Notes: generated from the letters alone by a model not told the origin. A stretch of DNA of 64,000 nt from Candidatus Binatia bacterium (GCA_023150935.1 JAKLJW010000008.1:1721-65720), one strand, 5' to 3'; positions 8,404 to 54,014 are shown, counted from the stretch's first letter. A program made the numbers and translations.

Positions 8404-8435
8404 AACGCGCGCGGAGCGCGCGTTCCACCCGGGCG
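8404..8435. repeat. GC hairpin repeat, left copy (aacgcgcgc-gga-gcgcgcgtt + ccacccgggcg)
   Basis: A 9-bp perfect stem with a 3-nt loop. The same sequence occurs at 20534-20566 (two substitutions in the tail). Both copies lie just 3' of a minus-strand gene end (8552 and 20575), so it may act as a terminator. No U-tract. Confidence 0.7.
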
Positions 8436-8551: not shown

Positions 8552-9502
8552 TCAACAGCCCGTCGCACGATCGAGGAGCGGCACCGCCGCGTTCGCTACC
8601 AGAACCGCCAACGCCGCACCGTCGGGGTAAGGAGTGTAGTAGCGCACCGCCATCGTATAGACCGCCGCGAGCACCGCGAAGATCACCCGCCCCCGGGCCG
8701 AGAACGGCGCGGTCACCGGATCGGTGAGCATGAAGAAGGCCGCCAGCAAAGCGCCGCCGGATAGCAACTGCGCCAACGCATCCCCCGCCAGCCACGGGGC
8801 GTGCCCTGCCATTCTCGCGCCCGGCGGAAGAACCAATGCCAGCAACGCCACCCCGGCCAGATACGTCAACGGCACACGCCAATCGACGGTCCGCATCAGG
8901 ATCAAGCATAACCCGCCGCCGAGCACCGCCAGCGGCGCCGCCTCGGCAAGCGCGCCCGGGTGAAGCCCGAACAACAACTCCCTCACCCCCGGTGCCACCG
9001 CACCGATCTCCTTCGCCAACGGCGTCGCCGCACTCACCCCGTCGACACCCGACCACGCCGGCGCAAGGAGCCGCGCCGGAACGATGCCCATGAGAACCAC
9101 CCGCCCCACCGCCGCCGGGTTGAACACGTTGTTGCCGAGACCGCCGAACAGGTGCTTGCCGACGAGAATCGCCGCCGCCGCACCCACCGGCCCAAGCCAG
9201 ATCGGCCCACTTGCCGGCATCGACAGCGCCGTAACAATCCCCGCAACCACGGCACTGCCGTCGAACGCTCGCCGCGCATCGCACGCCAGGTCGAATACCC
9301 ACGCCACCACCACGGCCAGACCGAGCGGCACGGCCGCCGCCGTTCCGTATCGCCAGATCGCCACCACACAAATCGGCAATAGCGCCAGCACCACTTCGAA
9401 CATCAGCCGCCGCAGAGTCCGCCCGCTATGGAGGAACGGACCCGTCACCTCGCCGGCCGCGGCGGTCGGTTTCATCCATGCCGGCGGTCGCGCATCGGTC
9501 AT
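8552..9502 (-). CDS. rnfD: RnfD/NqrB-family membrane subunit
   Basis: ATG at 9502 overlaps the upstream stop (ATGA). ...GKHLFGGLGNNVFNPAAVGRVVL..., flavinylation-type motif VDGVSAATPLAKE, and FFMLTDPVTAP are typical of the NQR2_RnfD_RnfE family. Confidence 0.85.
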   Translation of the reverse strand: MTDARPPAWMKPTAAAGEVTGPFLHSGRTLRRLMFEVVLALLPICVVAIWRYGTAAAVPLGLAVVVAWVFDLACDARRAFDGSAVVAGIVTALSMPASGPIWLGPVGAAAAILVGKHLFGGLGNNVFNPAAVGRVVLMGIVPARLLAPAWSGVDGVSAATPLAKEIGAVAPGVRELLFGLHPGALAEAAPLAVLGGGLCLILMRTVDWRVPLTYLAGVALLALVLPPGARMAGHAPWLAGDALAQLLSGGALLAAFFMLTDPVTAPFSARGRVIFAVLAAVYTMAVRYYTPYPDGAALAVLVANAAVPLLDRATGC

Positions 9503-9906
9503 CGGAACACGTACGCCAGCGGCTGAAGCGCAAAGTACACGATCGCACACGCCGCCAGACCCATCGGCACGCCCTGTAACCGCACCGCCACTTCGTCACC
9601 GAACTGCAACCGCTCGACAATCGCATCGACCAGAGCCGTCGCCGCCACCCACAGCGCCATGGCTCGCAGCACTTCCCCGACACCTTCGTACTCCGGCACG
9701 GCAAGCACCAGAGCCACGGGCGCAACCCGGGGCGCCGCCAGCACGATCAGGCCCGCCGCCAGCGGGAATCCCAACCCGGCCGGCCACGGCCCAATGGCAC
9801 CCGCCCAGGCAATCGCCGGCGCCAGCACCGCCACCCAGCGACCCGGCCCCGGCCCGATCGACACGGCAACCGCGACGGCCAGGAAGACCAGGTCATACGC
9901 GGTCAC
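9499..9906 (-). CDS. Small polytopic membrane protein, unassigned (occupies an RnfE/A position)
   Basis: GTG at 9906 is preceded by GGGAGA. About 135 aa, Ala/Gly/Val/Leu-rich with about 4 hydrophobic spans. No RnfA/E signature seen. The stop overlaps the rnfD ATG. Confidence 0.5.
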   Translation of the reverse strand: MTAYDLVFLAVAVAVSIGPGPGRWVAVLAPAIAWAGAIGPWPAGLGFPLAAGLIVLAAPRVAPVALVLAVPEYEGVGEVLRAMALWVAATALVDAIVERLQFGDEVAVRLQGVPMGLAACAIVYFALQPLAYVFR

Positions 9907-10315
9907 GAGGTCTCCCGAGCGCAACGATCGCCACCGCGCACCCCAGCAGCAGCACGCCCGCCGTGCGGAATTGCAGCGGCACAAACAGCGCGACTGGCGG
10001 CCCGGCGACGGCCGCTACCAGTAGATTAGGCCACCGTCCCGCCAGTAGACCCGCCGCAACGATCGCCATCGCATTCACCCCCGGAACCACCGCCGCAGAC
10101 GCCCACGCCACGGCAATCCAGCGCAGAGGCGAGGCGTTCGCAACCGCTGCGCCAACGACCAGCGCCGCCGACCAGGCCAGCGCTCCCGACCACGACAGAT
10201 CGGCCACCGCCGGCAACAACGCAGCGACGACCCCGGCGCCTATCCACGCCTCCGACACCGGCACCGCCAACGCGCCAGCCGACTCGCCCGAGTTCACGGA
10301 GTCACCGCCTTCCAT
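9893..10315 (-). CDS. Small polytopic membrane protein, unassigned (occupies an RnfE/A position)
   Basis: ATG at 10315 overlaps the end of the upstream gene by 22 nt. 140 aa, Ala/Gly/Val-rich with about 4 hydrophobic spans. No motif recognised. Coding status rests on operon context and frame continuity. Confidence 0.45.
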   Translation of the reverse strand: MEGGDSVNSGESAGALAVPVSEAWIGAGVVAALLPAVADLSWSGALAWSAALVVGAAVANASPLRWIAVAWASAAVVPGVNAMAIVAAGLLAGRWPNLLVAAVAGPPVALFVPLQFRTAGVLLLGCAVAIVALGRPRDRV

Positions 10316-10776
10316 GCCTGCAGCCGTTCGTTGACGGCATCCACGACGCGCTGAGAGGACACCGTCGCACCGGTCACCGTGTGTACCACGAGAGGCGGCG
10401 TTGCCGCCCGGCCGCGGAACCGCTCGAGGAAGTCGCTCCGAAGCAGCGCGGTCCGATCGACTCCTTCGTGCCCGCGCACGAGCAGGACTTGCTCGATACC
10501 CCCTTCATCGACGACCACCGCGCCGCGCACGGGACCCTGCACACCGACGACATCGAAGAACAGCACCGCCGCCGAGCCGGCCCGGAACGCCGGCGGCCCG
10601 GACACGGCGACCGGCTCGACCGGACCGATCAGCGACTCCGCCAGTCGACGCGCAGCGTCGGGTCGCGGCAACGCCACGTTGAGTCCCAGTGCGCACGCCA
10701 GGAGCACGGCCCCCAGCCGATCCGCTCGCCCCACACCGGCCATGACCGCGGTCCGGACGCGGCTCGCCACAGTCAT
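10294..10776 (-). CDS. FMN_bind-domain protein (RnfG/NqrC-like), membrane-anchored
   Basis: ATG at 10776 overlaps the rnfC stop (ATGA). N-terminal anchor LGAVLLACALGL. C-terminal ...VVHTVTGATVSSQRVVDAVNERL carries the [ST]GAT[IV][ST] covalent-FMN motif of RnfG/NqrC. Confidence 0.75.
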   Translation of the reverse strand: MTVASRVRTAVMAGVGRADRLGAVLLACALGLNVALPRPDAARRLAESLIGPVEPVAVSGPPAFRAGSAAVLFFDVVGVQGPVRGAVVVDEGGIEQVLLVRGHEGVDRTALLRSDFLERFRGRAATPPLVVHTVTGATVSSQRVVDAVNERLQAWKAVTP

Positions 10777-11900
10777 GCACAACCCCCGGCCACGCGCGCG
10801 ACGAAATCGCGCTTCAGCACCCGCATGCGCGCCACCAGACGCCGCTCGGAAGGACAGACGAATTCGCACAGACCGCACTCGACACAATCGAGCACGGCCG
10901 CGGTCGGCCGCCGGATCAACCGGCTAACCGGCAGCTCGAACGGACAAGCCGCAAGGCACCGCCCGCACCTCACGCAACGCTCGTCCCGCCGTCCACTCAC
11001 CTCGTCGTGCGTCAGCGCCAGCACGGCAATCGTGCCGGCGGCGATCGGCGTCTCCGGCGCCGCGGCGTATCCCATCATCGGCCCACCGCAGATAACCGCC
11101 GCGACCCGCTCCATGTCGACCTCACAGCTCGCCAGTACGTGTCCGACCTCGGTGCCGATCGGAACGACGTAGTTGCCCGGCCGGCCGACGGCGCCCCCGT
11201 CCACGGTGATCACACGATCGACCAGGGGACGGCGTTCGTTGACCGCACGGTGGATCGCCCGGATCGTCTGCACGTTCAGCACCACGGCCCCGACCGCAGG
11301 CGGACGACCGCCCCGCGGCACCTCGCGCGCAAGCGTTCGACGAACGAGCATGCGCTCGTCGCCTCCCGGGTAGCCGCGATCGTCATCCACCACCAGCGCG
11401 CGCGCGGCGCCGACCGCCGCAACCGCCAACCCGGCCCCCGCCTCGATCTCCGCGCCATGCTCGGCAAGCACCCGGCTGTCGCAGGTCACGTACGGTTCGC
11501 TTTGCAGCGCGTTGACGACCACCGTATCGAGGCCCGGCCGCGAGGCGACGCGCGAGAGCTTGAGGTAAGTGGGAAACATCGCCCCGCCCATGCCCACCAC
11601 TCCGGCATCGCGCACGGCGTCGACGACATCCGCACCACGGGCAAGCGGCCGCACGACGTCCGGCTCGCCCGCAACCGCGATCTCGCCGCCGACGCCGACC
11701 ACGGTCCCGGATAGCGGCGAATGGACGCGCAACTGCCATGCGGCGCCTTGCGCCGATCGCGCCAGCAGGTCGCCGGCGCGGACGCGGTCGCCCGACTGCA
11801 CGACGCAGTGCAGGTCTCGCACCGGCAGGCGAACCAGCGGCGGCGCCACCAGCGGCGCGATGCGCGAGTCCGCCGTGCGCTTGCGAGCAGGTATTCTCAC
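10773..11900 (-). CDS. rnfC: RnfC-like subunit (NAD(H)/FMN-binding fold plus 2x[4Fe-4S])
   Basis: GTG at 11900 overlaps the cytochrome stop (GTGA). VVGMGGAMFPTYLKL, SEPYVTCD, and two ferredoxin motifs (CVRCGRCLAACP and CVECGLCEFVCP). The track start (12215) is an over-extension into the upstream gene. Confidence 0.85.
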   Translation of the reverse strand: MRIPARKRTADSRIAPLVAPPLVRLPVRDLHCVVQSGDRVRAGDLLARSAQGAAWQLRVHSPLSGTVVGVGGEIAVAGEPDVVRPLARGADVVDAVRDAGVVGMGGAMFPTYLKLSRVASRPGLDTVVVNALQSEPYVTCDSRVLAEHGAEIEAGAGLAVAAVGAARALVVDDDRGYPGGDERMLVRRTLAREVPRGGRPPAVGAVVLNVQTIRAIHRAVNERRPLVDRVITVDGGAVGRPGNYVVPIGTEVGHVLASCEVDMERVAAVICGGPMMGYAAAPETPIAAGTIAVLALTHDEVSGRRDERCVRCGRCLAACPFELPVSRLIRRPTAAVLDCVECGLCEFVCPSERRLVARMRVLKRDFVARVAGGCA

Positions 11901-12469
11901 GGTGCCCACTCCTCGATGCGATGGCACTCGGCACATTGCGCGGCGAAGTATTCCGCGTGGCATTCGAGGCACCCCGCGCCCCGTTCGAGCCCGGCGCTCG
12001 CATGTTCCTGTCGCGCACGCCGGTCCCGTCCCGGATCGCGTACCGATTCGGTATGCCACGGCGGCACCTGCCTGACGTGGCAGTCGCGGCACTGCTCGGT
12101 CCGATGGCAGCCAAGGCACTGAGGGCGATCGGCTACCGCCGCGGCGCCGTGGGTCAGCGTCACGAACGCCGCGTCGTGCGTGGCCTGCACGCGGCCCCGG
12201 TGGCACTCGGCGCAACCCTGCGACGCCTCGCCACCGCGCGGGACGGGATCGCGACGAACTGCATTGACGCCCGCCCAGGCAAACGCCGCGACCAGCACAA
12301 CGCCGGCCAGTCCCGTCGCCGCCACGGGTCCGAGCATGCCCCTACCGGCTCGCCCGAGAACGGCGGCCGAGCCCGGAGCAGGAAGCCTCGCGCGGAGACG
12401 ACGCGCGTTCGTTTCGAAGTCCGTGCCCATGCCCGGGTACCGTGTTCCCCGATCGGAGCGGTTTTTCAA
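11897..12469 (-). CDS. Membrane-anchored multihaem c-type cytochrome (5 x CXXCH)
   Basis: Hydrophobic anchor GPVAATGLAGVVLVAAFAWAG, followed by CAECH, CLGCH, CRDCH, CLECH and CAECH within about 110 aa. The size and anchor resemble the NrfH/NapC class, but with five sites. The start is uncertain (12469, or an internal ATG). Confidence 0.8.
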   Translation of the reverse strand: MKNRSDRGTRYPGMGTDFETNARRLRARLPAPGSAAVLGRAGRGMLGPVAATGLAGVVLVAAFAWAGVNAVRRDPVPRGGEASQGCAECHRGRVQATHDAAFVTLTHGAAAVADRPQCLGCHRTEQCRDCHVRQVPPWHTESVRDPGRDRRARQEHASAGLERGAGCLECHAEYFAAQCAECHRIEEWAP

Positions 12470-12559: not shown

Positions 12560-15500
12560 CTAGCGCGGAACGCCGAGATCGATCCAGCGTACAACGGCCG
12601 CCAGCTCCTGCTCCGAAAGAGGATGCGCCGACGGATGCGGCCGGTCCCCTGCGATCGCGCCCGGTGCGTGCAACTCCCGACCCAGCAACTTCTCCGTCAG
12701 AGCGCTCTCGATCGCCAGTCCCTCGCCCGCCGTGTATCGGCGCAACGCCTCGTACGCCTCCGTGCCGGTCAGGTTCACCCCCGCCGCAGGGTCTTTGCCC
12801 GCGTGGCAGCTCGCACAACGCGCCTCGACGATCGGCCGCACATCGGTGTCGAAACTCGCCTCGCGCAACTCCACGGGTCCGTCGCCCGACCAGTTCGCAG
12901 GCATACGGCCCGTACCGCTTTCCTGGCTCCAGTTCGCCAGCGTCCGCGACGCCGAAGTCATCGCGTCGGGCCGGCGCAGGGTATCGGCCGGCCTCCCCGT
13001 CAGTCCGCCGTGACAGCCCCCACAGGTCTGCGCGAAGAGACGCCGCGGAATCGACAGGGTGTGCAGCTCGCCCGGCTGCGCGTACAGCCAGCGGTTCGGC
13101 GAACGCAACGCCATGCCCCGGCCGTTCAGCGACTGGAGGTCGAAAGCGAGCCCCGACGGCACCGCGGCGTAGAACGAACCGTCGGGTTCGAGCGGCAGCT
13201 CCGCGATAGTGACGCGCCTGTCGTCGCGCCATCCCACCAGTCTGACCCCCTGCACCTGATCGACGTCGGGCGTTTCCGTACCGCAGATCGGGCAGCTCGC
13301 CGTCGCGATGTGACGAGGCCCCACCGGCACGATCTGCTCGAAGAACGCATCGAGCAGCGGCAGGTCGGCCACGTGCAAGACGGCCGGCGTTCCTTCCGGA
13401 TAGCCGGCAAAGCCGCGCACGACCGCCGGCGCCCCGAACAGTCTCTCCTGCCGCAGCAACGACTTGCCCACCGGCTCCTTAAGACGGGCAACGACCGGGC
13501 GCGGCCACAGCTCGGAGTCGGGACCCCCGATCGTCGGCTCGCGCCGGAAAGCGCCGGGGGCGAACCCGTCCGGGGTCTGCCACGCCGGCGCCGGTACAAG
13601 TCGAAAGATGTCGAAGTCGGGATCGGCCCCCGCATCGGTCAGATCCAATGGCCCCTGCGCCCATGCAACAACGACGCTCCCGTCGGGCATCGGGAAAGGA
13701 TCGCGGTACGCACCGCCGGCCGACACACCGCGGGCCGCAGCCGTTGCATCGAGCGCCAACCACCCCGGCACGAAGCGCGGCAGCGACGTCACCGGCGTGC
13801 CGGTCGCATACGGATGATCGAGATTGTCGGTGGGGTTGTCGGCCTCGATCGTCGGGCCGAACTGGTGATCGGAAAGAATCAGACTGCCGCCCCACCACGA
13901 ATCGGCGTCACGGCCGATGCGGACCTCGAGGCCGTTCGGCAACTCGCGGTCGTCGGCGAAGATCGGCACTCCCGAACGGTTGCCGTTGTGGGTGTGGAAG
14001 TTCGAGCCGTCGACGTGGGTGCGGAACAACGCGCCGTTGAAGAACGGCCGGCCGTCCTGTTCTCCGGTACGCAGCGACGTGAACACGATCTCGCCCGACG
14101 ATCTCATCGTCGGACGCCTGACCTGACTCGGCGAGTAGGTCATACGCCGCAGCGTCGACCGCAACGTCTCCCGTTCCTGCCCCGGCGCCGCCAGTCGCAT
14201 ACGATAAGCGTCGAAACACGGCGCCAAGCGCGGCGTGCCTTCGATCACGTAGTGCGTCGTCGAGTCGATCGCGCGCGGCAGGGGCGCGTCGAGCAGCAGC
14301 TTCCCGGTTTCGTGACGCCGGACACGCCGCAGCGCTCCGGCGTTGCTGCCGCGAACGAAACGCACGGTACGACCGTCGTAGGCGCCCGCTCGCTCGGTGA
14401 GCTGGTCGTCGAGCAGCGCCGTCGAGCTGCCACCCTCGGCCTCGCCGAGGCGGCCGGCCGGACTCGACCGGCAAGCGCCCGCGTCGAGATTGGAGACGAA
14501 CACCAGCGCCGCGCGCGACAGGTCGTCGCCGTCACGGTCGTCCGGGTCCGGCACGTACAACGGATCGAGGAAGTGTACCGCCGGATCGGTCGAGAACGTC
14601 AATTGCCGCGCGGCACCGGTCGCGAGTTCGATCTCCCACAAGTCGAACGGTTCCTCCGCCGACCGGCGCATCGCAAAGACCACGCGGCGGGCGTCATAGC
14701 TCACCGCGGGCGCGCGCACGTCGGCCGCGGTGCCCTTGTGCAGGCCGGCCGTGAGGTTGACCTCCTCGCCGTCGCTGCGCCGCCAGTAGAGATCGCCCCC
14801 CGGCAGAAAGGTCAGGTCCTCGAAGAACCGTTCGGGGGAGTGACGTGGCCGGCGCACGAACACGAAGCCCCGCACCTCGCCGAGGGCGGCCGCCGTCCGC
14901 CGGCGGGCATCCTCGGCTTCGAGCCGCAGCCATTCGACCAGTAACCGGTAATCGGGATCGTCCTTGCGGAAAAAGTCGTTCCCGCCCTTGTGCACGATGC
15001 CGCCCTGCTCGACCGGGATGTTCTTGAGCAGTTGCTTCGACTGCTCGACGTCGCCGTCGAGCGCGACGAGCCGGGTGACCTTGCCGAGCATCGCCTGCCG
15101 GTTCGCACGGTGCATCGCGCCGGAAAACCGCGCCGGCAGGGCCGGCATACCGGCATCCAGCTTGAGGTCGTTGAAGGCCAGCTCGCCGTGGCAGTTGGCG
15201 CCCAGGCAGGTCTTGCGCACGAGGATCGGCGCGACCCGGCCGGCGAAGAACTCCTCGGTGGCACTCGGCGGGGACGGTGCGGACTGACGGGTGCGCGCCT
15301 CGACCTCGAGCCAGGCAACCAGTTCCGCGTAATCCGGGTCGTCGGGCGAGGCGAACACCTCCGGATGCCGCCAGTACCCGGAGTAGGCGGTCGCCAGCGG
15401 GGCGCGGGCAAGGAGACTTGCGGCCGGCGTTCCCGGATCGATCGGGCGCAGCGTGCGCGTCTGAGTCTCCCGGATCCGGGTACACCGATCGTAAGCGGCA

Positions 15501-15808
15501 CGCCGCTGGTCGGCCGAACCGATCCGACCTCGGTCGTCGGTGGGCCATTGCAGCAGCGCCGGCGCAGCGGCCTCCTCCTCCATCGCCCGGTAGCGCGCTT
15601 CGCGGACACCGTGACAGCCGCCGCAGCGCCGATCGAGGACGGGCACGACGCGCTCGCCGAACCGCGCCTCGGAATCCTCTTCAGCGACCGGCGGGGCATA
15701 GACCCACGGCAACCAGACCGAGCCTCCGGCGGCCGCGATCACAGCGCCGATTCCCAGTAAGGCGAGGGCCACGCCGCGCCGGCGTCTATGCGGTCGGGGC
15801 TCGATCAT
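12560..15808 (-). CDS. Large (about 1083 aa) exported haem-motif / PD40-like beta-propeller protein
   Basis: ATG at 15808 overlaps the apbE stop (ATGA). N-terminal anchor GVALALLGIGAVIAAAG. CGGCHG, CGGCHGG and CASCHAG lie in F..V.P[IV]L...C..CH contexts typical of Planctomycete-type cytochrome c domains. There is one CLGANCH (CX4CH). The segment DLYWRRSDGEEVNLT...VVFAMRR...DLWEIELATG looks PD40/TolB-like. Track residues 1-229 overlap apbE and were rejected. Confidence 0.75.
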   Translation of the reverse strand: MIEPRPHRRRRGVALALLGIGAVIAAAGGSVWLPWVYAPPVAEEDSEARFGERVVPVLDRRCGGCHGVREARYRAMEEEAAAPALLQWPTDDRGRIGSADQRRAAYDRCTRIRETQTRTLRPIDPGTPAASLLARAPLATAYSGYWRHPEVFASPDDPDYAELVAWLEVEARTRQSAPSPPSATEEFFAGRVAPILVRKTCLGANCHGELAFNDLKLDAGMPALPARFSGAMHRANRQAMLGKVTRLVALDGDVEQSKQLLKNIPVEQGGIVHKGGNDFFRKDDPDYRLLVEWLRLEAEDARRRTAAALGEVRGFVFVRRPRHSPERFFEDLTFLPGGDLYWRRSDGEEVNLTAGLHKGTAADVRAPAVSYDARRVVFAMRRSAEEPFDLWEIELATGAARQLTFSTDPAVHFLDPLYVPDPDDRDGDDLSRAALVFVSNLDAGACRSSPAGRLGEAEGGSSTALLDDQLTERAGAYDGRTVRFVRGSNAGALRRVRRHETGKLLLDAPLPRAIDSTTHYVIEGTPRLAPCFDAYRMRLAAPGQERETLRSTLRRMTYSPSQVRRPTMRSSGEIVFTSLRTGEQDGRPFFNGALFRTHVDGSNFHTHNGNRSGVPIFADDRELPNGLEVRIGRDADSWWGGSLILSDHQFGPTIEADNPTDNLDHPYATGTPVTSLPRFVPGWLALDATAAARGVSAGGAYRDPFPMPDGSVVVAWAQGPLDLTDAGADPDFDIFRLVPAPAWQTPDGFAPGAFRREPTIGGPDSELWPRPVVARLKEPVGKSLLRQERLFGAPAVVRGFAGYPEGTPAVLHVADLPLLDAFFEQIVPVGPRHIATASCPICGTETPDVDQVQGVRLVGWRDDRRVTIAELPLEPDGSFYAAVPSGLAFDLQSLNGRGMALRSPNRWLYAQPGELHTLSIPRRLFAQTCGGCHGGLTGRPADTLRRPDAMTSASRTLANWSQESGTGRMPANWSGDGPVELREASFDTDVRPIVEARCASCHAGKDPAAGVNLTGTEAYEALRRYTAGEGLAIESALTEKLLGRELHAPGAIAGDRPHPSAHPLSEQELAAVVRWIDLGVPR

Positions 15809-16851
15809 CGCAGCCATTGCAAGCGGTCGCCTTCGAGACGCAGGCCCCGCGACAGATGTACTCGGCCATCGCGATCGACGGCGAGAGCCTCGACGTCCGG
15901 CAGTGCGTCGGCCAGCGCAATCCCCCGTTCCCAGCCGAGCACGGCGATCGCGGTAGCCAGCGCGTCGGCGGCGGTGCCGTTGCCGGCGATCGCGGTCGCA
16001 CCGGTCACTTCGCGTGCCGGCCAGCCGGTGCGCAGGTCGACGATATGCTGATAGCGCGTGCCATCGACGGCGAAGAACCGTTCGTAGTCGCCGGAAGTGG
16101 CGATCGCGCAGTCGGTGGCCGGGAGCGTTGCGAGCAGGGTGTCGCGGCGCGGATCGCGCACCCCGACGATCCACGGGGCACCGTCCCGAGAGCCGCCGAC
16201 GACGACGTCGCCACCCGCATCGACGATGAAATTCGGGAAGCCGATCTGCCGCAGCCGCGCGGCCATGCGGTCGGCGGCGAAGCCCTTGCCGATGGCGCCG
16301 AAGCCGAGCTTCATGCCCGCACGGGCAAGGCCGATGCGGGCGCCTTCCTGCCGAATGCCCCGGTAGCCGACCAGTGCCTGGCGTGCGGCGATTTCCGCGC
16401 CGGCCGGCAGCCTTCGGGTCAGCCGCGCCCGCTCCCACAACTCGAAGAGCGGTCCCCCGGTGACGTCGAAGGCGCCGTCGCTGCGGCGCGCCCATTCAAT
16501 CGATCGCTCTACCAGCTCCTGCAGTTCGGGTCCGACGGCCACCGTCGCGGCCCCGGCCGCGGCATTGATCGCCGACGTCTCGCTGCCCGGCTGCCACTCG
16601 CTGATGCGCGCCTCGATCGCGGCGGCCAGGTCGAGCGCCTCGTTGGCGGCCGCGGCCGCGCGCGGCTGAGCGCCCGCTTCCGCCCACACCGACACCTCCA
16701 CCAGCGTACCCATCATGGGCCGCGCCACCCGGACGATCGCTCCGGCCGAACCGGGCCGGCCGCGCCGCTCGGCAACGCCGAGCGCGACCAGCACGGCAAC
16801 GCCCACCGCGACCGCCGCTATTCGATAGATAGGACGTACCGTGTCAGGCAT
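15805..16851 (-). CDS. apbE: FAD:protein FMN transferase (ApbE family)
   Basis: ATG at 16851. MMGTLVEV..., SEWQPGSETSAINAAAG, FDVTGGPLFELW, KLGFGAIGKGFAADRMA, IATSGDYERFF and HIVDLRTGWP form the ApbE pattern. Confidence 0.9.
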   Translation of the reverse strand: MPDTVRPIYRIAAVAVGVAVLVALGVAERRGRPGSAGAIVRVARPMMGTLVEVSVWAEAGAQPRAAAAANEALDLAAAIEARISEWQPGSETSAINAAAGAATVAVGPELQELVERSIEWARRSDGAFDVTGGPLFELWERARLTRRLPAGAEIAARQALVGYRGIRQEGARIGLARAGMKLGFGAIGKGFAADRMAARLRQIGFPNFIVDAGGDVVVGGSRDGAPWIVGVRDPRRDTLLATLPATDCAIATSGDYERFFAVDGTRYQHIVDLRTGWPAREVTGATAIAGNGTAADALATAIAVLGWERGIALADALPDVEALAVDRDGRVHLSRGLRLEGDRLQWLR

Positions 16852-19800
16852 TCGATATCCCAGACGGTCAGGTGCGACGTGACGCCGTGTGTGTCCGGCA
16901 ACCCGTCCCGCTCGTTGAGTCCCCGCTCGCGTTGGTCGGGCCGGTCGGCGTCGGGCCGCGGAGCCGGCAGGCGGCCCAGCGCGGGATGGTCGGGAGTGCA
17001 GAGCACCTCGCGCAAGCTGACCGCGTGTCCGTGGTGCAGAAACCGCGGCGGCCGCGCCCACAGGCCGCGCAGCGACGGCGCCACGAAGAACCCTTCGCGC
17101 TCCTCGACGCGCCCGCCATCGTCCGGATCCCAGGGGCGAACGTAGCCGTTGATCGCGTCGATCCGGTCAGCGCTGACGAGGGTGTGCGCGTCGTCTCGGG
17201 CGGCCGGTGTGACGAGCGGCGGGAAGGCCCGGTTCTGATTGTACGCGTGTTGTTTGTCGGTAAAGGCCGGCGCCGGATGACAGCCGGCGCAGCCGACCCG
17301 CGGGCTTTCGAACAGCGCCCGTCCGTGCCGCACCATCGGGTCGCCGGGATCGACCGGGTTGGGCAGCAGGCGCGGCTCGCCGCGCTGGTAGTCGCCGATG
17401 AACTTCTGCAGCTCGCGGAACGAGTAGGCGCGGCCGAGGTATCTTGCCGAGATCCGTGCAAAGTGCCGGTCGCGCCGCTTGAGCAGGTCGGCCAGCGTCA
17501 CGCCTTCCCGGTTCCACGCCCGGCCGGTGGCAACCACGATCGTGTCGGCCGAGGTCGCGTAACGGGCGGCGTCCTCGGCGGTGACACGGATGCCGTCGAA
17601 ATCGCCCGCCGGCGTGTGCCCCTGGAAGTCGACCAGCGGGTTGTGCTCCATCATCATGGTCAAGGGCTCGTCGATCGACAGTGTGCCTTCGACGAAGAAG
17701 GGGACCTTCTGAACCAGCGCCCGGAGGTCGGGAACCTCACGGCTGCCTCCCGTACGCTCGTCGCCGTGGCGGCTCTGGCCCATAACCTGGCTGACGCTCC
17801 ACTGCTTCCCGTCGGAGGTATCGCGGTAATGGCAATGAACGCAGCTCTGATCCTGGTCGACCGAGAACACGCTGGTCTGCACGAAGAACTCGCCGCGTTC
17901 GAAGTCAGTGGCCGGGAACGCTTGGGGTAGCCGCGATACCGAGCGGGTGACGGTTGTACCGTCGCGCATATCGACGAACGTGACGCTCTCGTCGAGGTGG
18001 TTGGCGACCACCAGCGTCGACCCGGCGACCGCCAGACCCGTAGGTTTGAGGCCGGTGGCGAAGACGCGACCGGGGCGCAGTCGCCCGGACGGCGGCGCAT
18101 CGACCGAAACGTGCCATTCCTGCACTTCGAAGGTGCCCGACATGGAGACGAACAGGCGGTCGCCGTCCGCGGCGATCTGTTCCGGGAAGGCGCCGGCGAC
18201 GCGCAGAAGATCCGGCGGCAGATCGCCTTTGACGTCGCCGGGAAGGGCTTCGAACGAATCGGACGTGTAGCGAGTGAAGGTCTCCGAAGCCGTGTACACA
18301 TCGACGCGCTCAGCGCCCGGATCGAGGATGACGATGTCGTTGCCGATGTCGCGGAACTTCTCCTGCGCGGTGCCGTCGACGGCATCGAACCGACCGAGCG
18401 GCCGTTGCCTGTCGAGCGGCAGCGGCCGGGCCGTGGCGGGATCGCGCCACAGCGTGAAATCGGCGTTCGGCTCGCGGGAATCGAGGCTCTCGCGACCGGC
18501 GTCGTGGTCGCCAGGGTGTCCCGAACCGACGTTGAGCGTGGCGAACACGAGTCGGCCTCGCGCCCAGGCGATGTCGTTGACCGGCGAACGGGTGAAGATG
18601 CGCCGCGTCTCGCGCCGCGAGCCGAGATCGACCACCGACACGTCGAGCGACCCGGTGTTGGCGACGTACAGCGTGCTGCCGTCCGGCGCGATGGCCATGT
18701 CGCGCGGTTTGTCGCCGACGGAGATGCCAGGCCCCTCGGTGCCGTCGGCGATCCAACGGCGCAGCGCTGCGAAGTCGGGATCGCGGTCCGGTTCCGGAAA
18801 CACGACGCCGCCGGGGTGATGCTTGCCGTCGATGCTGTCGGCACGGCCACCGTGACGCGTTGCGGTCACCGCAAGGAGAAGCGGACTGAGTTCCGGCGCT
18901 CCGGCGCGCGCGTGGACGACCGTGCTCCGAAAGATCTGCCGGTCGTCGCGACCGGCATAGAACCCGCCGGCCGCATAGAGGTGGCAGCTCGCCGTGCCGC
19001 AGCGGGCGCGCAGGACGCCTTTGATGCCGTCGGGACCGCCCGTTTGCGGGGGCGGGGCGATTTCCTCGAGCGGGGCGAAGCCGCAGCGCACGCACCGGGT
19101 CGCCGCCGGGTTGGCATCGCGCCATCCACACATGGGACACTTGCGCCACCCGGTCGGGTGGCGCCGTGGCGTACCGAAAAACCGGCGGCGGTCGAAACCC
19201 AGCTCGCGCAGCCGACCGGAGAGCCGGTCGTCGTCCCACGTCAGGTCGACCACGAGCACCTGGTTCGTCCAGAAGTTCGAGACGTAGACCGTGCGCCCAT
19301 CCGGCGCGAAGATCAGATCCTCGGCGTAGAACGGCACGGGGATGCTGGAGACGACGCGGTCGGTGGCGACGTCGATCACGGATAGGTAGTTGGAGAATCG
19401 ATTGGTGACGACGACCCAGCGACCCGTGGGGTGCAGAGCGATTCCGTACGGGTGGGACCCGACGGCGACGCGGCCGATCTCGCGCCGGCGGGGCACGTCG
19501 AAGACAACGACCTCCGACCCCGGAGCGATCTCCTTGCCGGCGAGCGTCACGTAGGCCCTGGCACCGTCGAGGGTGGCCGCGACGCGGTAAGGCCGGGTGC
19601 GAAGCGGCTGGCGGGGCAGCGACGGATCGGGGTTGGCGACGGGCAACAGGTTCCGGGGCGCCTCCGGGGCCGAGCTATCGTCGGGCGTGCCTGCAAGGTC
19701 AACCGGCGGTGCCACCGGCACCGCCCGCCCGGCATCGTGGTTGCCGGCAGAATTACGGTACAGCGAAACCCCGATGCCGGTAACGAGCGCGGCGCACGCC

Positions 19801-19892
19801 AGGACGGCGAGCCAGAGATCTCCCCTGTCTTGGCGGTCGATCGGCCGCCGTCGAGGGCGAGGGATTCGACTTGATCCCGGAAGCTCGAACAT
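16818..19892 (-). CDS. Large (about 1024 aa) anchored YVTN-type beta-propeller protein with a C-terminal di-haem peroxidase/MauG-like region
   Basis: ATG at 19892. Anchor LWLAVLACAALVTGIGV. YVTN-like blades (GSHPYGIALHPTGRWVVVTNRFSNYLSVIDVATDRVV..., YVSNFWTNQVLVVD, LYVANTGSLDVSVVD). Zinc-ribbon-like CPMCGW...CVRCGF. One CGTASCH (CX4CH). CVHCHYRD and CAGCHPAPAFTD sit in a CCP/MauG-like tail. Confidence 0.75.
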   Translation of the reverse strand: MFELPGSSRIPRPRRRPIDRQDRGDLWLAVLACAALVTGIGVSLYRNSAGNHDAGRAVPVAPPVDLAGTPDDSSAPEAPRNLLPVANPDPSLPRQPLRTRPYRVAATLDGARAYVTLAGKEIAPGSEVVVFDVPRRREIGRVAVGSHPYGIALHPTGRWVVVTNRFSNYLSVIDVATDRVVSSIPVPFYAEDLIFAPDGRTVYVSNFWTNQVLVVDLTWDDDRLSGRLRELGFDRRRFFGTPRRHPTGWRKCPMCGWRDANPAATRCVRCGFAPLEEIAPPPQTGGPDGIKGVLRARCGTASCHLYAAGGFYAGRDDRQIFRSTVVHARAGAPELSPLLLAVTATRHGGRADSIDGKHHPGGVVFPEPDRDPDFAALRRWIADGTEGPGISVGDKPRDMAIAPDGSTLYVANTGSLDVSVVDLGSRRETRRIFTRSPVNDIAWARGRLVFATLNVGSGHPGDHDAGRESLDSREPNADFTLWRDPATARPLPLDRQRPLGRFDAVDGTAQEKFRDIGNDIVILDPGAERVDVYTASETFTRYTSDSFEALPGDVKGDLPPDLLRVAGAFPEQIAADGDRLFVSMSGTFEVQEWHVSVDAPPSGRLRPGRVFATGLKPTGLAVAGSTLVVANHLDESVTFVDMRDGTTVTRSVSRLPQAFPATDFERGEFFVQTSVFSVDQDQSCVHCHYRDTSDGKQWSVSQVMGQSRHGDERTGGSREVPDLRALVQKVPFFVEGTLSIDEPLTMMMEHNPLVDFQGHTPAGDFDGIRVTAEDAARYATSADTIVVATGRAWNREGVTLADLLKRRDRHFARISARYLGRAYSFRELQKFIGDYQRGEPRLLPNPVDPGDPMVRHGRALFESPRVGCAGCHPAPAFTDKQHAYNQNRAFPPLVTPAARDDAHTLVSADRIDAINGYVRPWDPDDGGRVEEREGFFVAPSLRGLWARPPRFLHHGHAVSLREVLCTPDHPALGRLPAPRPDADRPDQRERGLNERDGLPDTHGVTSHLTVWDIECLTRYVLSIE

Positions 19893-19987: not shown

Positions 19988-20125
19988 AGGTCCCTCTCCT
20001 TCGAACATTGGGATGGGTGGGACCGGGGATGGGCAAGTGCAATGGCGGGCAGCCATCGGGGTCGGCATCGGCATCGGTATCGATCCGATTCCCTCGATCC
20101 CGATAGCGGTTCCGACCCCGACCCC
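19988..20125. repeat. Composite repeat, right copy: palindromic hexamer-repeat element (core 20032-20125)
   Basis: Homologous to 8201-8340 and in the same orientation. The core is ggcaagtgcaatggcgggcagccatcggggtcggcatcggcatcggtatcgat...cgatagcggttccgaccccgacccc. Confidence 0.85.
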
Positions 20126-20130
20126 ACGGC

Positions 20131-20190
20131 AACAGCACCCCACCGCGGAGTCAGGTCCCTCTCCCAGCGGGAGAGGTCAGGTGAGGGGAT
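20131..20190. repeat. 60-bp inverted repeat, left arm, flanking the DUF559 fragment
   Basis: aacagcaccccaccgcggagtcaggtccctctcccagcgggagaggtcaggtgaggggat. The reverse complement of 20453-20512 matches at 56/60 positions. Contains an internal 8-bp hairpin cctctccc/gggagagg. Confidence 0.9.
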
Positions 20191-20452: not shown

Positions 20453-20512
20453 ATCCCCTCACCTGTCCTCTCCCGCCGGGAGAGGAACCTGACTCCGCGG
20501 CGGGGTGCTGTT
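20453..20512. repeat. 60-bp inverted repeat, right arm
   Basis: atcccctcacctgtcctctcccgccgggagaggaacctgactccgcggcggggtgctgtt. Pairs with 20131-20190. Confidence 0.9.
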
Positions 20513-20533
20513 ACCGTGCTGTGGCGGGCATCG

Positions 20534-20566
20534 AACGCGCGCGGAGCGCGCGTTTCACCTGGGCGG
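20534..20566. repeat. GC hairpin repeat, right copy
   Basis: aacgcgcgcggagcgcgcgtt + tcacctgggcgg. Homologous to 8404-8435. Lies 9 bp beyond the stop of the minus-strand gene that ends at 20575. Confidence 0.7.
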
Positions 20567-23127: not shown

Positions 23128-23171
23128 GATGTCGCTCCTTTCCTCGTCCGCCGGTGCGCCCGGTCTGGGAA

Positions 23172-26100
23172 CTAAGTGGTGTGGCCGCGGTCGATTGCCG
23201 GCGTTGCCGCCGGCGGTAGACCGGGGGCCGCCGAAGGCACACGATCGGCTCGGCGTCCGCTGATTCGCGCCAGGAAGCGGCCGATATCCTCGAGAACCAG
23301 GTACCCGCACGGAACCACGAGCAGCGTGATAAGCGTTGCGAACAGCACCCCATAACCGAGCGAGATGGCCATCGGGATTAGAAACTGCGCCTGGACGCTT
23401 TGCTCCGTCATCAGAGGCAACAATCCGACGAAGGTCGTCAGTGAAGTCAGCACGATGGGCCGAAACCGGGCCACGCCCGCTTCGGTAATCGCGTCGTGGA
23501 CGGTCACGCCTTCGCTGCGGGCCTCGTTGACGAAGTGCACCAACACCAGACTCGCGTTCACCACCACACCGGAAAGGGCGACGATACCGATCACCGACAT
23601 CATGCTCAGATGTCGACCCATCAAGAGGTGCCCGCCGATCGCACCGACGATGCCGAACGGAATCACGCTCATGATGATGAACGGCTGGGTATACGAACCC
23701 AGCGGGATCGCCAGCAACGCGTACACCGCGAACAGCGCCAGAACGTACGCGCCCAGCAAACCCGACAGCGCGCGGGTCTGCTCGCGTTGCTCCCCTTCGA
23801 GATCGTAAGACACCGACGGGTAGTCGGCGAGGATGCGCGGCAGCTTCTCGCCGGTCATATCCTCCAGCACTTCGTTTGCCGTCGTCACCGCGCGGTCGAC
23901 GTCGGCCGTAACGTTGACGACGCGCTTGCGGTCGGTGCGCCGGATCGTCGAATAGCCGCGGCCGAGATCGACCGTGGCCACCGTCGAAAAGGGCACCTCG
24001 GTGCCGTCCGGGGCGCGCACGCGGAGATTTTCGAGATCGCCGATCGAAGTTCGATCGCGCTCCGGGTACCGGACCATGACCCGGATGTCGTCGCGCCCGC
24101 GCTGGATGCGTTGCGCCTCCTGTCCGTAGAAAGCCTGCCGCACCTGACGCGCGAGGTCCTGCAGGGTCAACCCCAGCAATTCGGCCGACGGTCGGATGCC
24201 GAGCTTGATCTCGCGCTTGCCGGCACGAAAGGAGTCGGCGATGTCGACGACGCCGGGATAACGCGCGAGTTCGTCCTTTACGCGCCGTGCCGCCTGCGCC
24301 AGTTCATCGATGTCGGTGCCGGCCAACTCGATATCGATGGCGTTGCCGGCCGAAAACAGGTCGGAGGCATACCCGAGCTCGGTCGCTCCCGGCACGGCGC
24401 CGACGAGATCGCGCCAGCGCTGGCCGATCTCCCCGGTGCTGATGTCGCGCTCCTCGGAAGGCACGAGCCCGATCACCACCTCGGCGACATTGCCGCGCAC
24501 TTCGCCGATCCCCTGCACCGCCGCGGGGTTATTGTCCTGCCGGTCCTTCAACGGCTGCGCCCCGACCGCCGTGAGCACGTTCTTGAATAGACTGGCGCCG
24601 GGCCGCGCGTGCGCCGCGTCGATCTCCTGCCGCAACGGCCCCACGGCCGCCGCGATACGGTCGACCGCCGCCTGCGTGACTTCGGCGGTCGTGCCCGGCG
24701 GCATCGTCAGACGGGCTGACAGGTAATCCGCCTCGATGGGCGGAAAGAAGGAGAAGTGCATGCGGCCGCTGGCAACCACCGTGAACGCCAGCAGCAACAG
24801 TACCATCGCAATGGCAATGGTCGTGTAGCGCCATTCCTGCGCCAGCACCAACACCGGGCGGTAGACCTTGTGCGCGAAAGCTATCAACCCATCGCTGCAG
24901 CGGTCTTGCAGCCCCACCCATGCGCGCCCGACTCGGGTACGAGGTCCGCGGTGCGGATGGGCGTGACCGAGATGAGCGGGCAGCACGAATTGCGACTCGA
25001 TCAGCGAACACACCAGGCACGCGATCGACACGATGCCGGCGACGGCGAACACCTGGCCCATCGGGCCCGGCAGCACCACCATCGGCACGAACGTCGCCAC
25101 GGTCGTCAGGACGCCGAAGACCACCGGTACCGTCACCTGTTGCGTGCCGATCACCGCGCCTTCGAGGTTGTTGCCGAGCTTCTCCTGCCAGGTGTGAACG
25201 CTCTCGCCGACCACCGTGGCGTCGTCGACGAGGATGCCGAGCACGACGATGAACGCGAACAGCGAAATGACGTTGATCGAGATGCCGAGCGGATTGAACA
25301 GCGCGAGAGCGCCGAGGAAGGAAATCGGGACGCCGAGGGTTACCCACGCCGCCAGTCGCGTGTGCAGGAACAGCGTGAGCACGATAAACACGAGAATGAA
25401 CCCGCTTCTCGCGTTGCTCAGCAGCGTTTCGAGCCGGCCGCGCAACGGCACCGAATCGTCTTGCCAGACGGTCAGCGAGACGCCCTCGGGCAGCCGCGGT
25501 TGGGCCGTGGCGACGTATTCTTTGACCGCCTCCGCGATCTCGATAACGTCCTGCTGCCCGACCCGAAACACCTGGATCAGCAGCGCGGGTTTTCCGTCGA
25601 AACGTCCCGAGACGCTGGTATCCGCGAAGCCGTCGACGACCGTGGCGACGTCGCCGAGCGTTACCCGGGTGCCGTCGGCGCGCGTGAGGACGATGATGTC
25701 CTCGAAGTCCGGCCCGCGGTACGCCTGCCCTTTCGCGCGCAGCAGGATTTCTCCGCCGGCCGTCTCGATGGTGCCTCCGGGCAGATCGAGCGAAGAGCGG
25801 CGGACGGCGGCGGCGACATGATCGAACGTGATGCCGTGGCGGCGCAGCGCCTCCTCGGAAATCTCGATCGAGATCTCGAACGGCCGCGCCAGTACCACGT
25901 CGACCTGAGTGATCGCCGGATGGGCGGCAAGCTCGTCGCGGATCCGTTCGGCAATGGCGCGCAGGCTGCGCTCGTCGGCGGGCCCGTAGAGGGCGATGTC
26001 GCTCACCGGGCGCCGAATCGTAACGCGCGCCACGATCGGCTTCTCCGTCTCCGTGGGAAACGTGTTGATGGCATCGACGCGGTTCTTGATGTCGGTGAAC

Positions 26101-53894: not shown

Positions 53895-54014
53895 GATGAG
53901 GCGATGCTGGCACTTTCTCGGGCGGGGAACAAACTCTTCCGGCGAGGTGTCGATTCGGAGTACGCTGGGGATCGTGGATCTCTGGCAACCTCGCCGCTGG
54001 TGGCGCGTGCGACC

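What the first reader, a model, noticed from the sequence alone, without database searches (positions are those of the whole stretch)
12560..19892. Two >1000-aa proteins share an unusual C-x4-CH site alongside CXXCH sites and beta-propellers
The 1083-aa protein has RFGERVVPVLDRRCGGCHG, FFAGRVAPILVRKTCLGANCHG, LFAQTCGGCHGG and VRPIVEARCASCHAG. The roughly 1024-aa protein has LRARCGTASCHLY plus CVHCH and CAGCH. In both, one site has four residues between the cysteines (CLGANCH, CGTASCH) in an otherwise cytochrome-like context. Non-standard CX3-4CH haem sites exist but are rare and usually need dedicated lyases. The second protein also carries a CPMCGW...CVRCGF zinc-ribbon embedded between propeller blades, which is unexpected for an exported domain.
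Basis: seen in the sequence. Interest (0 to 1): 0.55.

Follow-up and report, generated by a model that had tools for sequence, protein, structure and literature searches.

The report
Hydrazine-synthase-like haem complex with half-Rnf
The two giant proteins are distant relatives of the two halves of anammox hydrazine synthase, their odd C-x4-CH sites are almost certainly ordinary haem attachment sites with two extra residues, and they sit in a conserved nine-gene cassette that seems to feed them electrons from NADH through a cut-down Rnf complex; what the enzyme acts on is unknown.

Summary
Observation confirmed: every quoted motif is present. Chance expects about 0.004 CX4CH sites per protein.

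In about 80 homologues of each protein the Cys, Cys and His are invariant or nearly so. The spacer varies (2, 3, 4 or 5 residues) at the same aligned site. Profile comparison shows the two CX4CH domains are paralogues of canonical CXXCH cytochrome domains, including the C-terminal haem domain matched by hydrazine synthase alpha. So CX4CH is a haem-site indel variant. No dedicated lyase travels with it.

B-(ApbE)-A-pentahaem cytochrome-RnfC-FMN_bind-two small membrane proteins-RnfD keeps the same gene order in about 30 MAG species of at least six phyla. The window itself is Ca. Binatia.

Inferred mechanism: NADH, then RnfC/D/G flavins, then cytochromes, then the HZS-like catalytic haems. The substrate is unknown.

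The zinc ribbon is an optional insertion, present in 57 of 87 homologues.

The parts
16818..19892 (-). Protein B (1024 aa; alternative ATG at 19973 gives 1051 aa). It has an N-terminal membrane anchor, a seven-bladed YVTN propeller like HZS-beta, an inserted ribbon plus CX4CH cytochrome domain, and a C-terminal dihaem domain like HZS-gamma and CCP.
18981..19001 (-). B CX4CH site, CGTASCH (residues 298-304)
   Evidence: C298 92%, C303 95% and H304 95% conserved. 84 of 89 full-length homologues surveyed have CX4CH; the variants are CGKCH, CGGAGGCH and AGTRACH.
18723..19037 (-). Small cytochrome-like domain inserted in the B propeller (residues 286-390), with a conserved downstream His359 in HHPGGVVF
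   Evidence: hhalign to A_N1 98.1%, to A_N2 96.7%, to A_C 85.5%. H359 is 95% conserved. No Pfam hit when scanned alone.
19083..19139 (-). Four-Cys ribbon CPMCGW-x11-CVRCG (residues 252-270), an optional insertion
   Evidence: Each Cys is 59% conserved in alignment A2. Present in 57 of 87 full-length homologues. Model pLDDT is 67-81 here.
17829..17843 (-). B CVHCH (684-688), equivalent to the gamma-I haem site
   Evidence: Invariant. Aligns to SCASCHY of 5c2v_C.
17277..17291 (-). B CAGCH (868-872), equivalent to the gamma-II haem site
   Evidence: Invariant. Aligns to GCLECHP of 5c2v_C.
15805..16851 (-). ApbE-family FAD:protein FMN transferase with an N-terminal anchor. It overlaps the B stop and the A start.
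   Evidence: PF02424, E 1.7e-77. Present between B and A in most related loci. Fused to A in P0043.
12560..15817 (-). Protein A (1085 aa). It has a membrane anchor, two small cytochrome domains (CXXCH, CX4CH), a propeller, an HZS_alpha middle haem domain and a C-terminal cytochrome c domain.
   Evidence: Foldseek top hit is 5c2v_A, E 8.8e-28, against TolB at 1.6e-10. The family profile against PDB gives 5c2v_A E 3.8e-28, with five collinear stretches over chain residues 26-767. PF18582 scores 29.4, above its cut-off of 26.6. AF2 pLDDT 89.5.
15611..15625 (-). A haem site 1, CGGCH (63-67)
   Evidence: Invariant. It is CX3CH or CX4CH in distant members.
15188..15208 (-). A haem site 2, CX4CH, CLGANCH (202-208)
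   Evidence: C202, C207, H208 and G209 are invariant in 39 sequences. About a dozen orthologues have CFGCH at the same site. H274 and K263 downstream are invariant.
13010..13024 (-). A haem site 3, CGGCH (930-934), equivalent to the HZS alpha-I site
   Evidence: Invariant. Aligns to CSGCH of 5c2v_A. Tyr591 of HZS corresponds to Leu here.
12803..12817 (-). A haem site 4, CASCH (999-1003), equivalent to the HZS alpha-II site
   Evidence: 97% conserved. Best-scoring stretch against 5c2v_A, 53 bits.
11897..12337 (-). Membrane-anchored pentahaem cytochrome c (5 CXXCH). The ORF extends to 12469.
   Evidence: Five CXXCH sites in the window protein and in 21 of 28 orthologues. One TM segment. Weak Cytochrome_C7 hit. 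Conserved position in all loci.
10773..11936 (-). RnfC-like subunit with an NADH/FMN domain and two 4Fe-4S motifs. The ORF extends to 12215.
   Evidence: TIGR01945 scores 264.9, above its cut-off of 245.95. Complex1_51K E 5.5e-28.
10294..10776 (-). RnfG/NqrC-like FMN_bind protein carrying a TGAT flavinylation-type motif
   Evidence: PF04205 scores 27.3, above its cut-off of 22. Motif HTVTGATVSS.
9893..10315 (-). Small membrane protein sm1 with four hydrophobic segments, no known family
   Evidence: Homologues in 19 related loci at the same position. No Pfam or NCBIfam hit.
9499..9984 (-). Small membrane protein sm2 with four hydrophobic segments, no known family
   Evidence: Orthologues in 17 loci. 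No conserved Cys and unrelated to sm1.
8552..9550 (-). RnfD/NqrB-like membrane flavoprotein subunit
   Evidence: PF03116 E 8e-80. TIGR01946 scores 212.2, above its cut-off of 207.05. DGVSAATPL motif.

Best explanation
The two proteins are the alpha-like (A) and fused beta-gamma-like (B) subunits of a membrane-anchored, periplasm-facing enzyme related to hydrazine synthase (HZS). It carries seven c-type haem sites.

The two C-x4-C-H sites are real haem attachment sites. They lie in small accessory cytochrome domains that are paralogues of the C-terminal haem domain of HZS-alpha. Two extra residues are inserted between the cysteines, and a conserved downstream His probably supplies the sixth ligand, giving bis-His relay haems.

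The accessory haems are inferred to wire the two catalytic-type haems (gamma-I-like CVHCH in B, alpha-I-like CGGCH in A) to an electron-input module encoded in the same operon. That module consists of a pentahaem cytochrome, the NADH-binding RnfC, the flavoproteins RnfD and an RnfG-like protein, and ApbE, which would flavinylate the last two. It amounts to the NADH-to-periplasm limb of an Rnf complex, without the ferredoxin and Na+-pumping limb (RnfA/E/B).

The most likely direction of electron flow is cytoplasmic NADH, then flavins, then cytochromes, then reduction of a small periplasmic oxidant. A nitrogen oxide such as NO or hydroxylamine is the best guess, and peroxide is the alternative.

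Shown here: motif presence and conservation, domain homology, HZS homology, and cassette synteny. Inferred: haem occupancy, complex formation, direction of electron flow, and substrate.
For: - Motif conservation with a variable spacer at homologous sites.
- hhalign probabilities of 85-99% among the four small domains, with CX4CH aligned to CXXCH by a two-residue gap.
- A helix directly precedes every motif in the AF2 models.
- HZS homology of A: only PDB sequence hit; profile E 3.8e-28 over the whole alpha chain; Foldseek E 8.8e-28; Pfam HZS_alpha above its cut-off.
- HZS homology of B.
- The gene order B-(ApbE)-A-cytochrome-RnfC-FMN_bind-sm1-sm2-RnfD is the same in the related loci (30 MAG species from the genome scan, plus loci fetched by protein look-up), covering Planctomycetota, Acidobacteriota, Myxococcota, Gammaproteobacteria, Bacteroidota and Verrucomicrobiota. 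The flanking genes differ.
- Genes overlap or abut in the window.
- An A-ApbE fusion exists, P0043.
- RnfC and RnfD pass the NCBIfam subfamily cut-offs. Flavinylation-type motifs are present.
- A multihaem cytochrome attached to Rnf has a precedent, MmcA (PMC9084895).
Against: - No experiment. Haem attachment is not shown.
- Model coordinates could not be inspected, so haem-pocket geometry was not measured.
- The direction of electron flow is inferred from thermodynamics only. In canonical Rnf this limb runs from the periplasmic flavin towards NAD+.
- Substrate clues are anecdotal: an NnrS/ScdA-type gene next to one locus and NnrU near another.
- The adjacent histidine kinases belong to different subfamilies.
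- The gamma-like domain scores below the Pfam CCP_MauG cut-off.
- ApbE is missing from the cassette in the Acidobacteriota and Bacteroidota loci.
Confidence: 0.7

Rival explanations
1. The system runs oxidatively. The HZS-like enzyme oxidises a low-potential periplasmic substrate, and the electrons pass through the cytochromes, RnfG-like protein, RnfD and RnfC to reduce NAD+. This is the direction in which that limb works in canonical Rnf.
For: In Rnf, electrons flow from the RnfG flavin through RnfD to RnfC and NAD+ (PMC11889175). The component set is the same.
Against: c-type bis-His haems usually lie well above the NAD+/NADH potential (general knowledge). The Na+-coupled limb that could drive uphill transfer (RnfA/E/B) is absent. 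No candidate low-potential substrate is evident.
Confidence: 0.2
2. B is essentially a cytochrome c peroxidase or MauG/MbnH-type dihaem oxidant. The cassette would then be an NADH-fed periplasmic peroxidase, or an enzyme that modifies a protein or cofactor, and would have nothing to do with nitrogen chemistry.
For: Weak hits to CCP_MauG (E 0.0055) and to the MbnH family (E 3.9e-4). Two CXXCH sites occur in the CCP order, with a PSLRGLW...FLHHG motif.
Against: The only significant solved relative of the dihaem domain is HZS-gamma. It is always paired with an HZS-alpha homologue. All CCP-type scores are below their cut-offs.
Confidence: 0.15
3. The CX4CH cysteines do not bind haem. They form a disulfide or a metal site in a degenerate, haem-free cytochrome-like fold.
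For: No Pfam cytochrome model recognises these domains when scanned alone. One B homologue (P0125) has lost the first Cys.
Against: His follows the second Cys in every case, and Cys/Cys/His are invariant or nearly so while the spacer sequence and length vary. The domains are homologous to canonical CXXCH domains. A conserved distal His is present. A single-Cys haem site is itself a known cytochrome c variant (general knowledge).
Confidence: 0.08
4. The pair is a true hydrazine synthase, which would point to hidden anammox-type metabolism in Binatia and the other lineages.
For: Whole-chain homology to the HZS alpha, beta and gamma subunits.
Against: NCBIfam equivalog scores are far below their cut-offs: 39.5 against 800, 57.2 against 560, 18.2 against 625. 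The alpha-I Tyr591 ligand is replaced by Leu. No conserved third Cys lies between the two haem motifs of the gamma-like domain. Identity to the HZS chains is 13-22%. Published HZS homologues outside anammox bacteria likewise lack the key residues (PMC12758564).
Confidence: 0.04

Closest known systems
Anammox hydrazine synthase (HZS alpha-beta-gamma; PDB 5c2v; Dietl et al. 2015)
   Same: A matches the whole alpha chain: propeller, middle haem domain and C-terminal haem domain. B matches the beta propeller plus the gamma dihaem domain. The beta-gamma fusion is also seen in Scalindua, and both haem motifs of each subunit are conserved.
   Different: - Identity is 13-22%.
- A has about 300 extra N-terminal residues carrying two more haem domains.
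- B has an inserted ribbon and a haem domain.
- Tyr591 is replaced by Leu.
- No conserved counterpart of gamma-Cys165 was found.
- Both proteins are membrane-anchored.
- They are encoded with ApbE and RnfC/D/G-type genes, not with anammox genes.
Non-anammox HZS homologues, clades I-IV (Hagglund et al. 2025, PMC12758564); 'hzs-like' genes (PMC10732223)
   Same: Genes for an alpha homologue and a fused beta-gamma homologue lie together. Key HZS catalytic residues are not conserved. Function is unknown.
   Different: - In clades I-III the alpha gene comes first, with an FG-GAP/CRTAC1 gene and ABC-transporter genes nearby.
- Clade I has c554-type haem domains on the beta-gamma protein.
- That paper does not mention ApbE, Rnf subunits or CX4CH.
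- Here the order is beta-gamma, ApbE, alpha, and all members found are from MAGs.
- Whether this family equals their clade IV could not be tested.
Rnf / Na+-NQR complexes
   Same: RnfC and RnfD pass the subfamily cut-offs. There is an RnfG-like FMN_bind subunit and an ApbE flavin transferase.
   Different: RnfA, RnfE and RnfB are absent from the cassette. Two unrelated four-segment membrane proteins without conserved Cys take their place in the gene order. The gene order is C-G-x-x-D.
MmcA-Rnf of Methanosarcina acetivorans
   Same: A multihaem c-type cytochrome is encoded with an Rnf complex and associated with it (PMC9084895).
   Different: MmcA accompanies a complete Rnf and passes electrons to methanophenazine or to extracellular acceptors, not to an HZS-like enzyme.
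Cytochrome c3 CX4CH haem sites
   Same: A haem-binding motif with four residues between the cysteines (PMC10454114; 10.1101/2024.01.05.574438).
   Different: A different fold: a tetrahaem class III cytochrome, against the monohaem HZS-alpha-II-like domain here. In this family the spacing varies among orthologues.

Membership tests
Hydrazine synthase (NCBIfam NF052339/40/41/42 equivalogs) | Score above the curated equivalog cut-off | tested here: not met
   alpha 39.5 against 800; beta 57.2 against 560; gamma 18.2 against 625; beta-gamma fusion 39.4 against 1250
Hydrazine synthase | Alpha-subunit architecture: propeller, middle haem domain, C-terminal haem domain | tested here: met
   Profile E 3.8e-28 with five collinear stretches over chain residues 26-767. 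Foldseek E 8.8e-28. PF18582 scores 29.4, above 26.6.
Hydrazine synthase | Tyr591 as proximal ligand of haem alpha-I (CSGCHyGSYRG) | tested here: not met
   The family consensus CagCH.GsltG places Leu at the Tyr position; the window has CGGCHGGLTG.
Hydrazine synthase | Third covalent haem link from gamma-Cys165 | tested here: inconclusive
   No conserved Cys lies between C687 and C868 of B, but no full residue-level alignment to the gamma chain was obtained for that stretch.
Hydrazine synthase | Co-occurrence with hydrazine dehydrogenase and other anammox genes | not tested
   Only the 64-kb window and 20-kb loci were available. None contains HAO- or HDH-like genes.
c-type cytochrome haem-binding site (CXnCH) | Conserved Cys...Cys-His in an exported protein | tested here: met
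   Invariant in A and 92-95% conserved in B. N-terminal anchors are predicted.
c-type cytochrome haem-binding site (CXnCH) | Located in a cytochrome c-type domain homologous to canonical CXXCH domains | tested here: met
   hhalign 85-99% among A_N1, A_N2, A_C and B_ins. A_C hits Pfam Cytochrom_C.
c-type cytochrome haem-binding site (CXnCH) | Covalently bound haem | not testable with these tools
   Needs haem staining or mass spectrometry.
Rnf complex | RnfC and RnfD subunits | tested here: met
   TIGR01945 scores 264.9, above 245.95. TIGR01946 scores 212.2, above 207.05.
Rnf complex | RnfA, RnfE and RnfB subunits (the ferredoxin and Na+ limb) | tested here: not met
   Absent from the cassette in all loci. 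sm1 and sm2 have no conserved Cys, are unrelated to each other, and gave only one marginal NqrE/RnfA hit, in one orthologue.
Bacterial dihaem cytochrome c peroxidase / MauG (PF03150) | Score above the Pfam gathering cut-off | tested here: not met
   17.8 against 25.6.
Zinc ribbon / rubredoxin-like knuckle | Two CxxC knuckles conserved across the family | tested here: inconclusive
   Present in the window. All four Cys co-occur in 59% of the aligned homologues, and in 57 of 87 full-length proteins. The metal is unknown.

The most novel reading that the evidence does not exclude
The cassette is a self-contained, horizontally mobile respiratory or detoxifying module. In it a truncated Rnf (RnfC/D/G only) exports NADH electrons to a periplasmic enzyme related to hydrazine synthase, and that enzyme carries out nitrogen-oxide chemistry outside anammox bacteria: NO or hydroxylamine reduction, or some other N-N or N-O transformation. 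This would represent the kind of pre-existing haem enzyme from which hydrazine synthase evolved. It would also be the first case of a half-Rnf used as an electron exporter to cytochromes.
Probability: 0.2. Interest if true: 0.85.

Novelty: new variant of a known kind. Interest (0 to 1): 0.6.

Why it matters
Hydrazine synthase was long thought to have no relatives. Distant homologues were described only in 2023-2025, and their function is unknown.

This locus shows a well-defined subfamily with a fixed set of partner genes. Those partners point to where its electrons come from: NADH, via flavins and cytochromes. That turns 'HZS-like, function unknown' into an assay that can be run: an NADH-dependent cassette expressed in a host, tested with NO, hydroxylamine, nitrite or peroxide.

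It would also show that one limb of Rnf can be re-used without its ion-pumping half. And it gives a natural series in which CX2CH, CX3CH, CX4CH and CX5CH replace each other at one haem site, which is useful for studying how tolerant cytochrome c maturation is.

Tried and rejected
- sm1 and sm2 as divergent RnfA/RnfE: rejected. There are no Pfam hits. One marginal NqrE/RnfA hit appeared, in one orthologue only. Neither has a conserved Cys for a 2Fe-2S cluster, and hhalign finds no relation between the two.
- A conserved dedicated two-component regulator: rejected. Histidine kinases adjoin the cassette in 13 loci but belong to different subfamilies: MctS/UhpB/NarX-like, CztS/CopS-like and AtoS-like.
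- A dedicated haem lyase or cytochrome maturation gene: none in the window, and none among the gene families recurring around the cassette.
- Pfam on the isolated CX4CH domains: no hit even at E 10. Homology was visible only by profile-profile comparison.
- The afdb50 fold library was not available. The genome scan with the broad A1 alignment failed for lack of a conserved stretch and was repeated with the tighter B alignment.
- The sister subfamily of A (P0078-P0082, CX4CH at sites 1 and 2) was checked for the same context. P0082 has neither the B partner nor Rnf genes next to it.
- The flanking repeats were sought in the nearest relative's locus and in all other loci: absent.
- Model coordinates are not exposed, so Cys/His geometry and haem pockets could not be measured.
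- Literature searches linking Rnf subunits with hydrazine synthase, or describing RnfCDG-only modules, found nothing relevant.

Full report
**1. What is in the sequence**

The window has about 69% G+C. Its transketolase is 100% identical to one annotated as Candidatus Binatia bacterium, so the window comes from a Binatia MAG.

On the minus strand, codon-position G+C shows one uninterrupted run of genes from about 19.97 kb down to 8.55 kb. In order they are:
- protein B (16818-19892);
- an ApbE flavin transferase (15805-16851);
- protein A (12560-15817);
- a membrane-anchored cytochrome with five CXXCH sites (11897-12337);
- RnfC (10773-11936);
- an FMN_bind protein like RnfG (10294-10776);
- two small membrane proteins, each with four hydrophobic segments (9893-10315 and 9499-9984);
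- RnfD (8552-9550).

Most neighbouring genes overlap or abut.

Shuffling each protein gives an expected 0.004 CX4CH sites.

**2. Are the CX4CH sites haem sites?**

A search of 5.8 billion proteins found 83 relatives of A and about 95 full-length relatives of B. All are unnamed or 'hypothetical'.

In 39-sequence alignments the conservation is as follows:

| Protein | Site | Conservation |
|---|---|---|
| A | C63/C66/H67 | invariant |
| A | C202/C207/H208/G209 (CX4CH) | invariant |
| A | C930/C933/H934 | invariant |
| A | C999/C1002/H1003 | 97% |
| B | C298/C303/H304 (CX4CH) | 92-95% |
| B | C684/C687/H688 | invariant |
| B | C868/C871/H872 | invariant |

The spacer is not fixed:
- At site 2 of A, 55 proteins have CX4CH (CFG[AS]NCH), but about a dozen orthologues have CFGCH. 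P0051, which sits in the same cassette, is one of them.
- Site 1 is CX3CH or CX4CH in distant members.
- Site 4 is CX4CH in two members.
- In B, 84 proteins have CX4CH, one has CGKCH, one has CGGAGGCH, and one has lost the first Cys.

Invariant Cys-Cys-His with a spacer of free length and sequence is the signature of thioether haem attachment plus a proximal His. It is not the signature of a metal or disulfide site.

Profile-profile comparison shows that the two N-terminal domains of A, the C-terminal domain of A and the domain inserted in B are homologous, at 85-99% probability. CX4CH aligns to CXXCH through a two-residue gap placed between the cysteines. The C-terminal domain of A is recognised as cytochrome c by Pfam, and it is the best-scoring stretch against the C-terminal haem domain of HZS-alpha.

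Each small domain keeps a downstream His: H149, H274 (invariant), H359 and H1059. That fits bis-His relay haems. In the AF2 models a helix ends right at each motif, as in class I cytochromes. Both proteins start with a single membrane-spanning helix, so the bulk is periplasmic, where haem attachment takes place.

CX4CH is an accepted motif of cytochrome c3. No maturation or lyase gene lies in the window or travels with the cassette.

**3. What the proteins are**

The only solved structure that A matches by sequence is hydrazine synthase alpha. With the family profile the match is E 3.8e-28, in five collinear stretches covering chain residues 26-767 of 782. The AF2 model (pLDDT 89.5) hits 5c2v_A at E 8.8e-28, while the next fold, TolB, is at 1.6e-10. 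The Pfam HZS_alpha middle domain passes its cut-off.

So A is alpha-like with about 300 extra N-terminal residues. B is a beta-gamma fusion with an insertion in the propeller.

This is not a hydrazine synthase:
- The NCBIfam equivalog scores are an order of magnitude below their cut-offs.
- The Tyr that ligates haem alpha-I in HZS aligns to Leu.
- No conserved Cys is available for the third haem link of gamma-I.

A 2025 paper describes distant, co-located alpha and beta-gamma homologues in a few cultured Planctomycetota, Desulfobacterota, Acidobacteriota and Verrucomicrobiota, and they likewise lack the key residues. That paper mentions neither ApbE, Rnf nor CX4CH. Its raw hit tables include MAG proteins from the same phyla, but this family is not analysed there.

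**4. The cassette**

A scan of one genome per species (185,579 species) found 30 loci. All are from MAGs: Planctomycetota, Acidobacteriota, Myxococcota, Gammaproteobacteria, Bacteroidota (Maribacter, Saprospiraceae, Reichenbachiella) and Akkermansiaceae.

tblastn with the window proteins shows the order B-(ApbE)-A-cytochrome-RnfC-FMN_bind-sm1-sm2-RnfD in every locus long enough to show it (gene calls).

The flanking genes differ from genome to genome, even in the closest relative at 76-79% identity. One locus sits among transposase, reverse-transcriptase and toxin-antitoxin genes. Clustering all flank ORFs recovered only the cassette genes plus heterogeneous histidine kinases.

ApbE is fused to A in one member. 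It is absent from the cassette in the Acidobacteriota and Bacteroidota loci.

The profile of A finds 241 clusters at E 1e-30 or better among 1.84 billion representatives. A sister subfamily lacks this genomic context.

**5. How it most likely works**

In Rnf structures RnfC binds NADH through FMN and two 4Fe-4S clusters. [quoted passage not shown] Na+ translocation is assigned to RnfA/E rather than RnfD.

The cassette keeps exactly that limb:
- RnfC and RnfD pass the curated cut-offs.
- The FMN_bind protein carries a TGAT motif and RnfD carries DGVSAATPL.
- ApbE is there to attach the flavins.

It lacks RnfA, RnfE and RnfB. A pentahaem cytochrome is encoded directly upstream of RnfC. This recalls the multihaem cytochrome MmcA, which is associated with the Methanosarcina Rnf.

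I therefore infer this chain: NADH, RnfC, RnfD, the FMN_bind protein, the pentahaem cytochrome, the four accessory haems (including both CX4CH haems), and finally the gamma-I-like and alpha-I-like haems.

Reduction of a periplasmic oxidant is the more natural direction on thermodynamic grounds. The reverse direction cannot be excluded.

The substrate is unknown. A nitrogen oxide is favoured only by analogy with HZS and by two anecdotal neighbours: an NnrS/ScdA-type gene and NnrU. Peroxide is the alternative, given the CCP-like domain.

**6. The zinc ribbon**

CPMCGW-x11-CVRCG is real and lies between propeller blades, just before the inserted cytochrome domain. It is present in 57 of 87 full-length homologues and is missing from whole clades. 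It is an optional decoration.

Both knuckles read CxxCG, as in zinc ribbons and in rubredoxins. The metal cannot be told from sequence, and neither can the alternative of two disulfides.

**7. Verdict**

The haem reading of CX4CH is well supported; the 'dedicated lyase' expectation is not.

The real interest lies one level up. This is an uncharacterised subfamily of hydrazine-synthase-like enzymes, spread by horizontal transfer, with extra relay haems and its own NADH-linked half-Rnf electron supply. It is a new variant of a recently recognised kind.

Noticed in passing
window 8236-8340 and 20026-20125; 8404-8435 and 20534-20565; 20125-20190 / 20453-20518: The cassette is bracketed by direct repeats found nowhere else in the window: 87% identity over 106 nt, plus a 32-nt GC-rich palindrome at 94%. 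The upstream flank also holds a 66-nt inverted repeat. These could be insertion scars or a genome-specific intergenic repeat. They are absent from the nearest relative's locus and from all other loci.
   Followed up: partly
window 20575-23310 (-): A 911-aa ORF with strong coding signal lies directly upstream of B. It has no Pfam hit and no counterpart next to the cassette in other genomes.
   Followed up: partly
window 13283-13294 (A residues 840-843): A further CPIC(G) pair in protein A lies just before the HZS_alpha middle domain. It is 54-62% conserved in the family. Its role is unknown; a metal site near the alpha-I-like haem is conceivable.
   Followed up: no
window 32310-32403 (-): A tRNA-Sec gene, anticodon TCA, so the organism uses selenocysteine.
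   Followed up: no
window 59971-63998 (+): A gene for an Hsp70-like protein (760 aa) overlaps the start of a DUF6109 gene that runs off the end of the window. This is an unusual chaperone-like pair.
   Followed up: no
window 52515-54269 (-): A radical SAM protein with an HMPTM-type N-terminal zinc ribbon.
   Followed up: no
L001 952-2949 and L036 20565-21167: Genes linked to the NO response lie near the cassette in two unrelated genomes: an ScdA_N/NnrS/DUF1858 fusion protein in a Vicinamibacterales MAG, and NnrU in a gammaproteobacterial MAG. This is suggestive but anecdotal.
   Followed up: partly
L035 381-5918: In a Saprospiraceae MAG the cassette sits next to genes for a transposase, a group II intron-type reverse transcriptase and two toxin-antitoxin pairs. 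This is consistent with mobility of the cassette.
   Followed up: no
P0078-P0082; L034: A sister subfamily of A (about 950-985 aa, 31-32% identity) has CX4CH at both N-terminal sites. In the one member whose locus was checked (P0082, L034), no B partner or Rnf genes lie nearby.
   Followed up: partly
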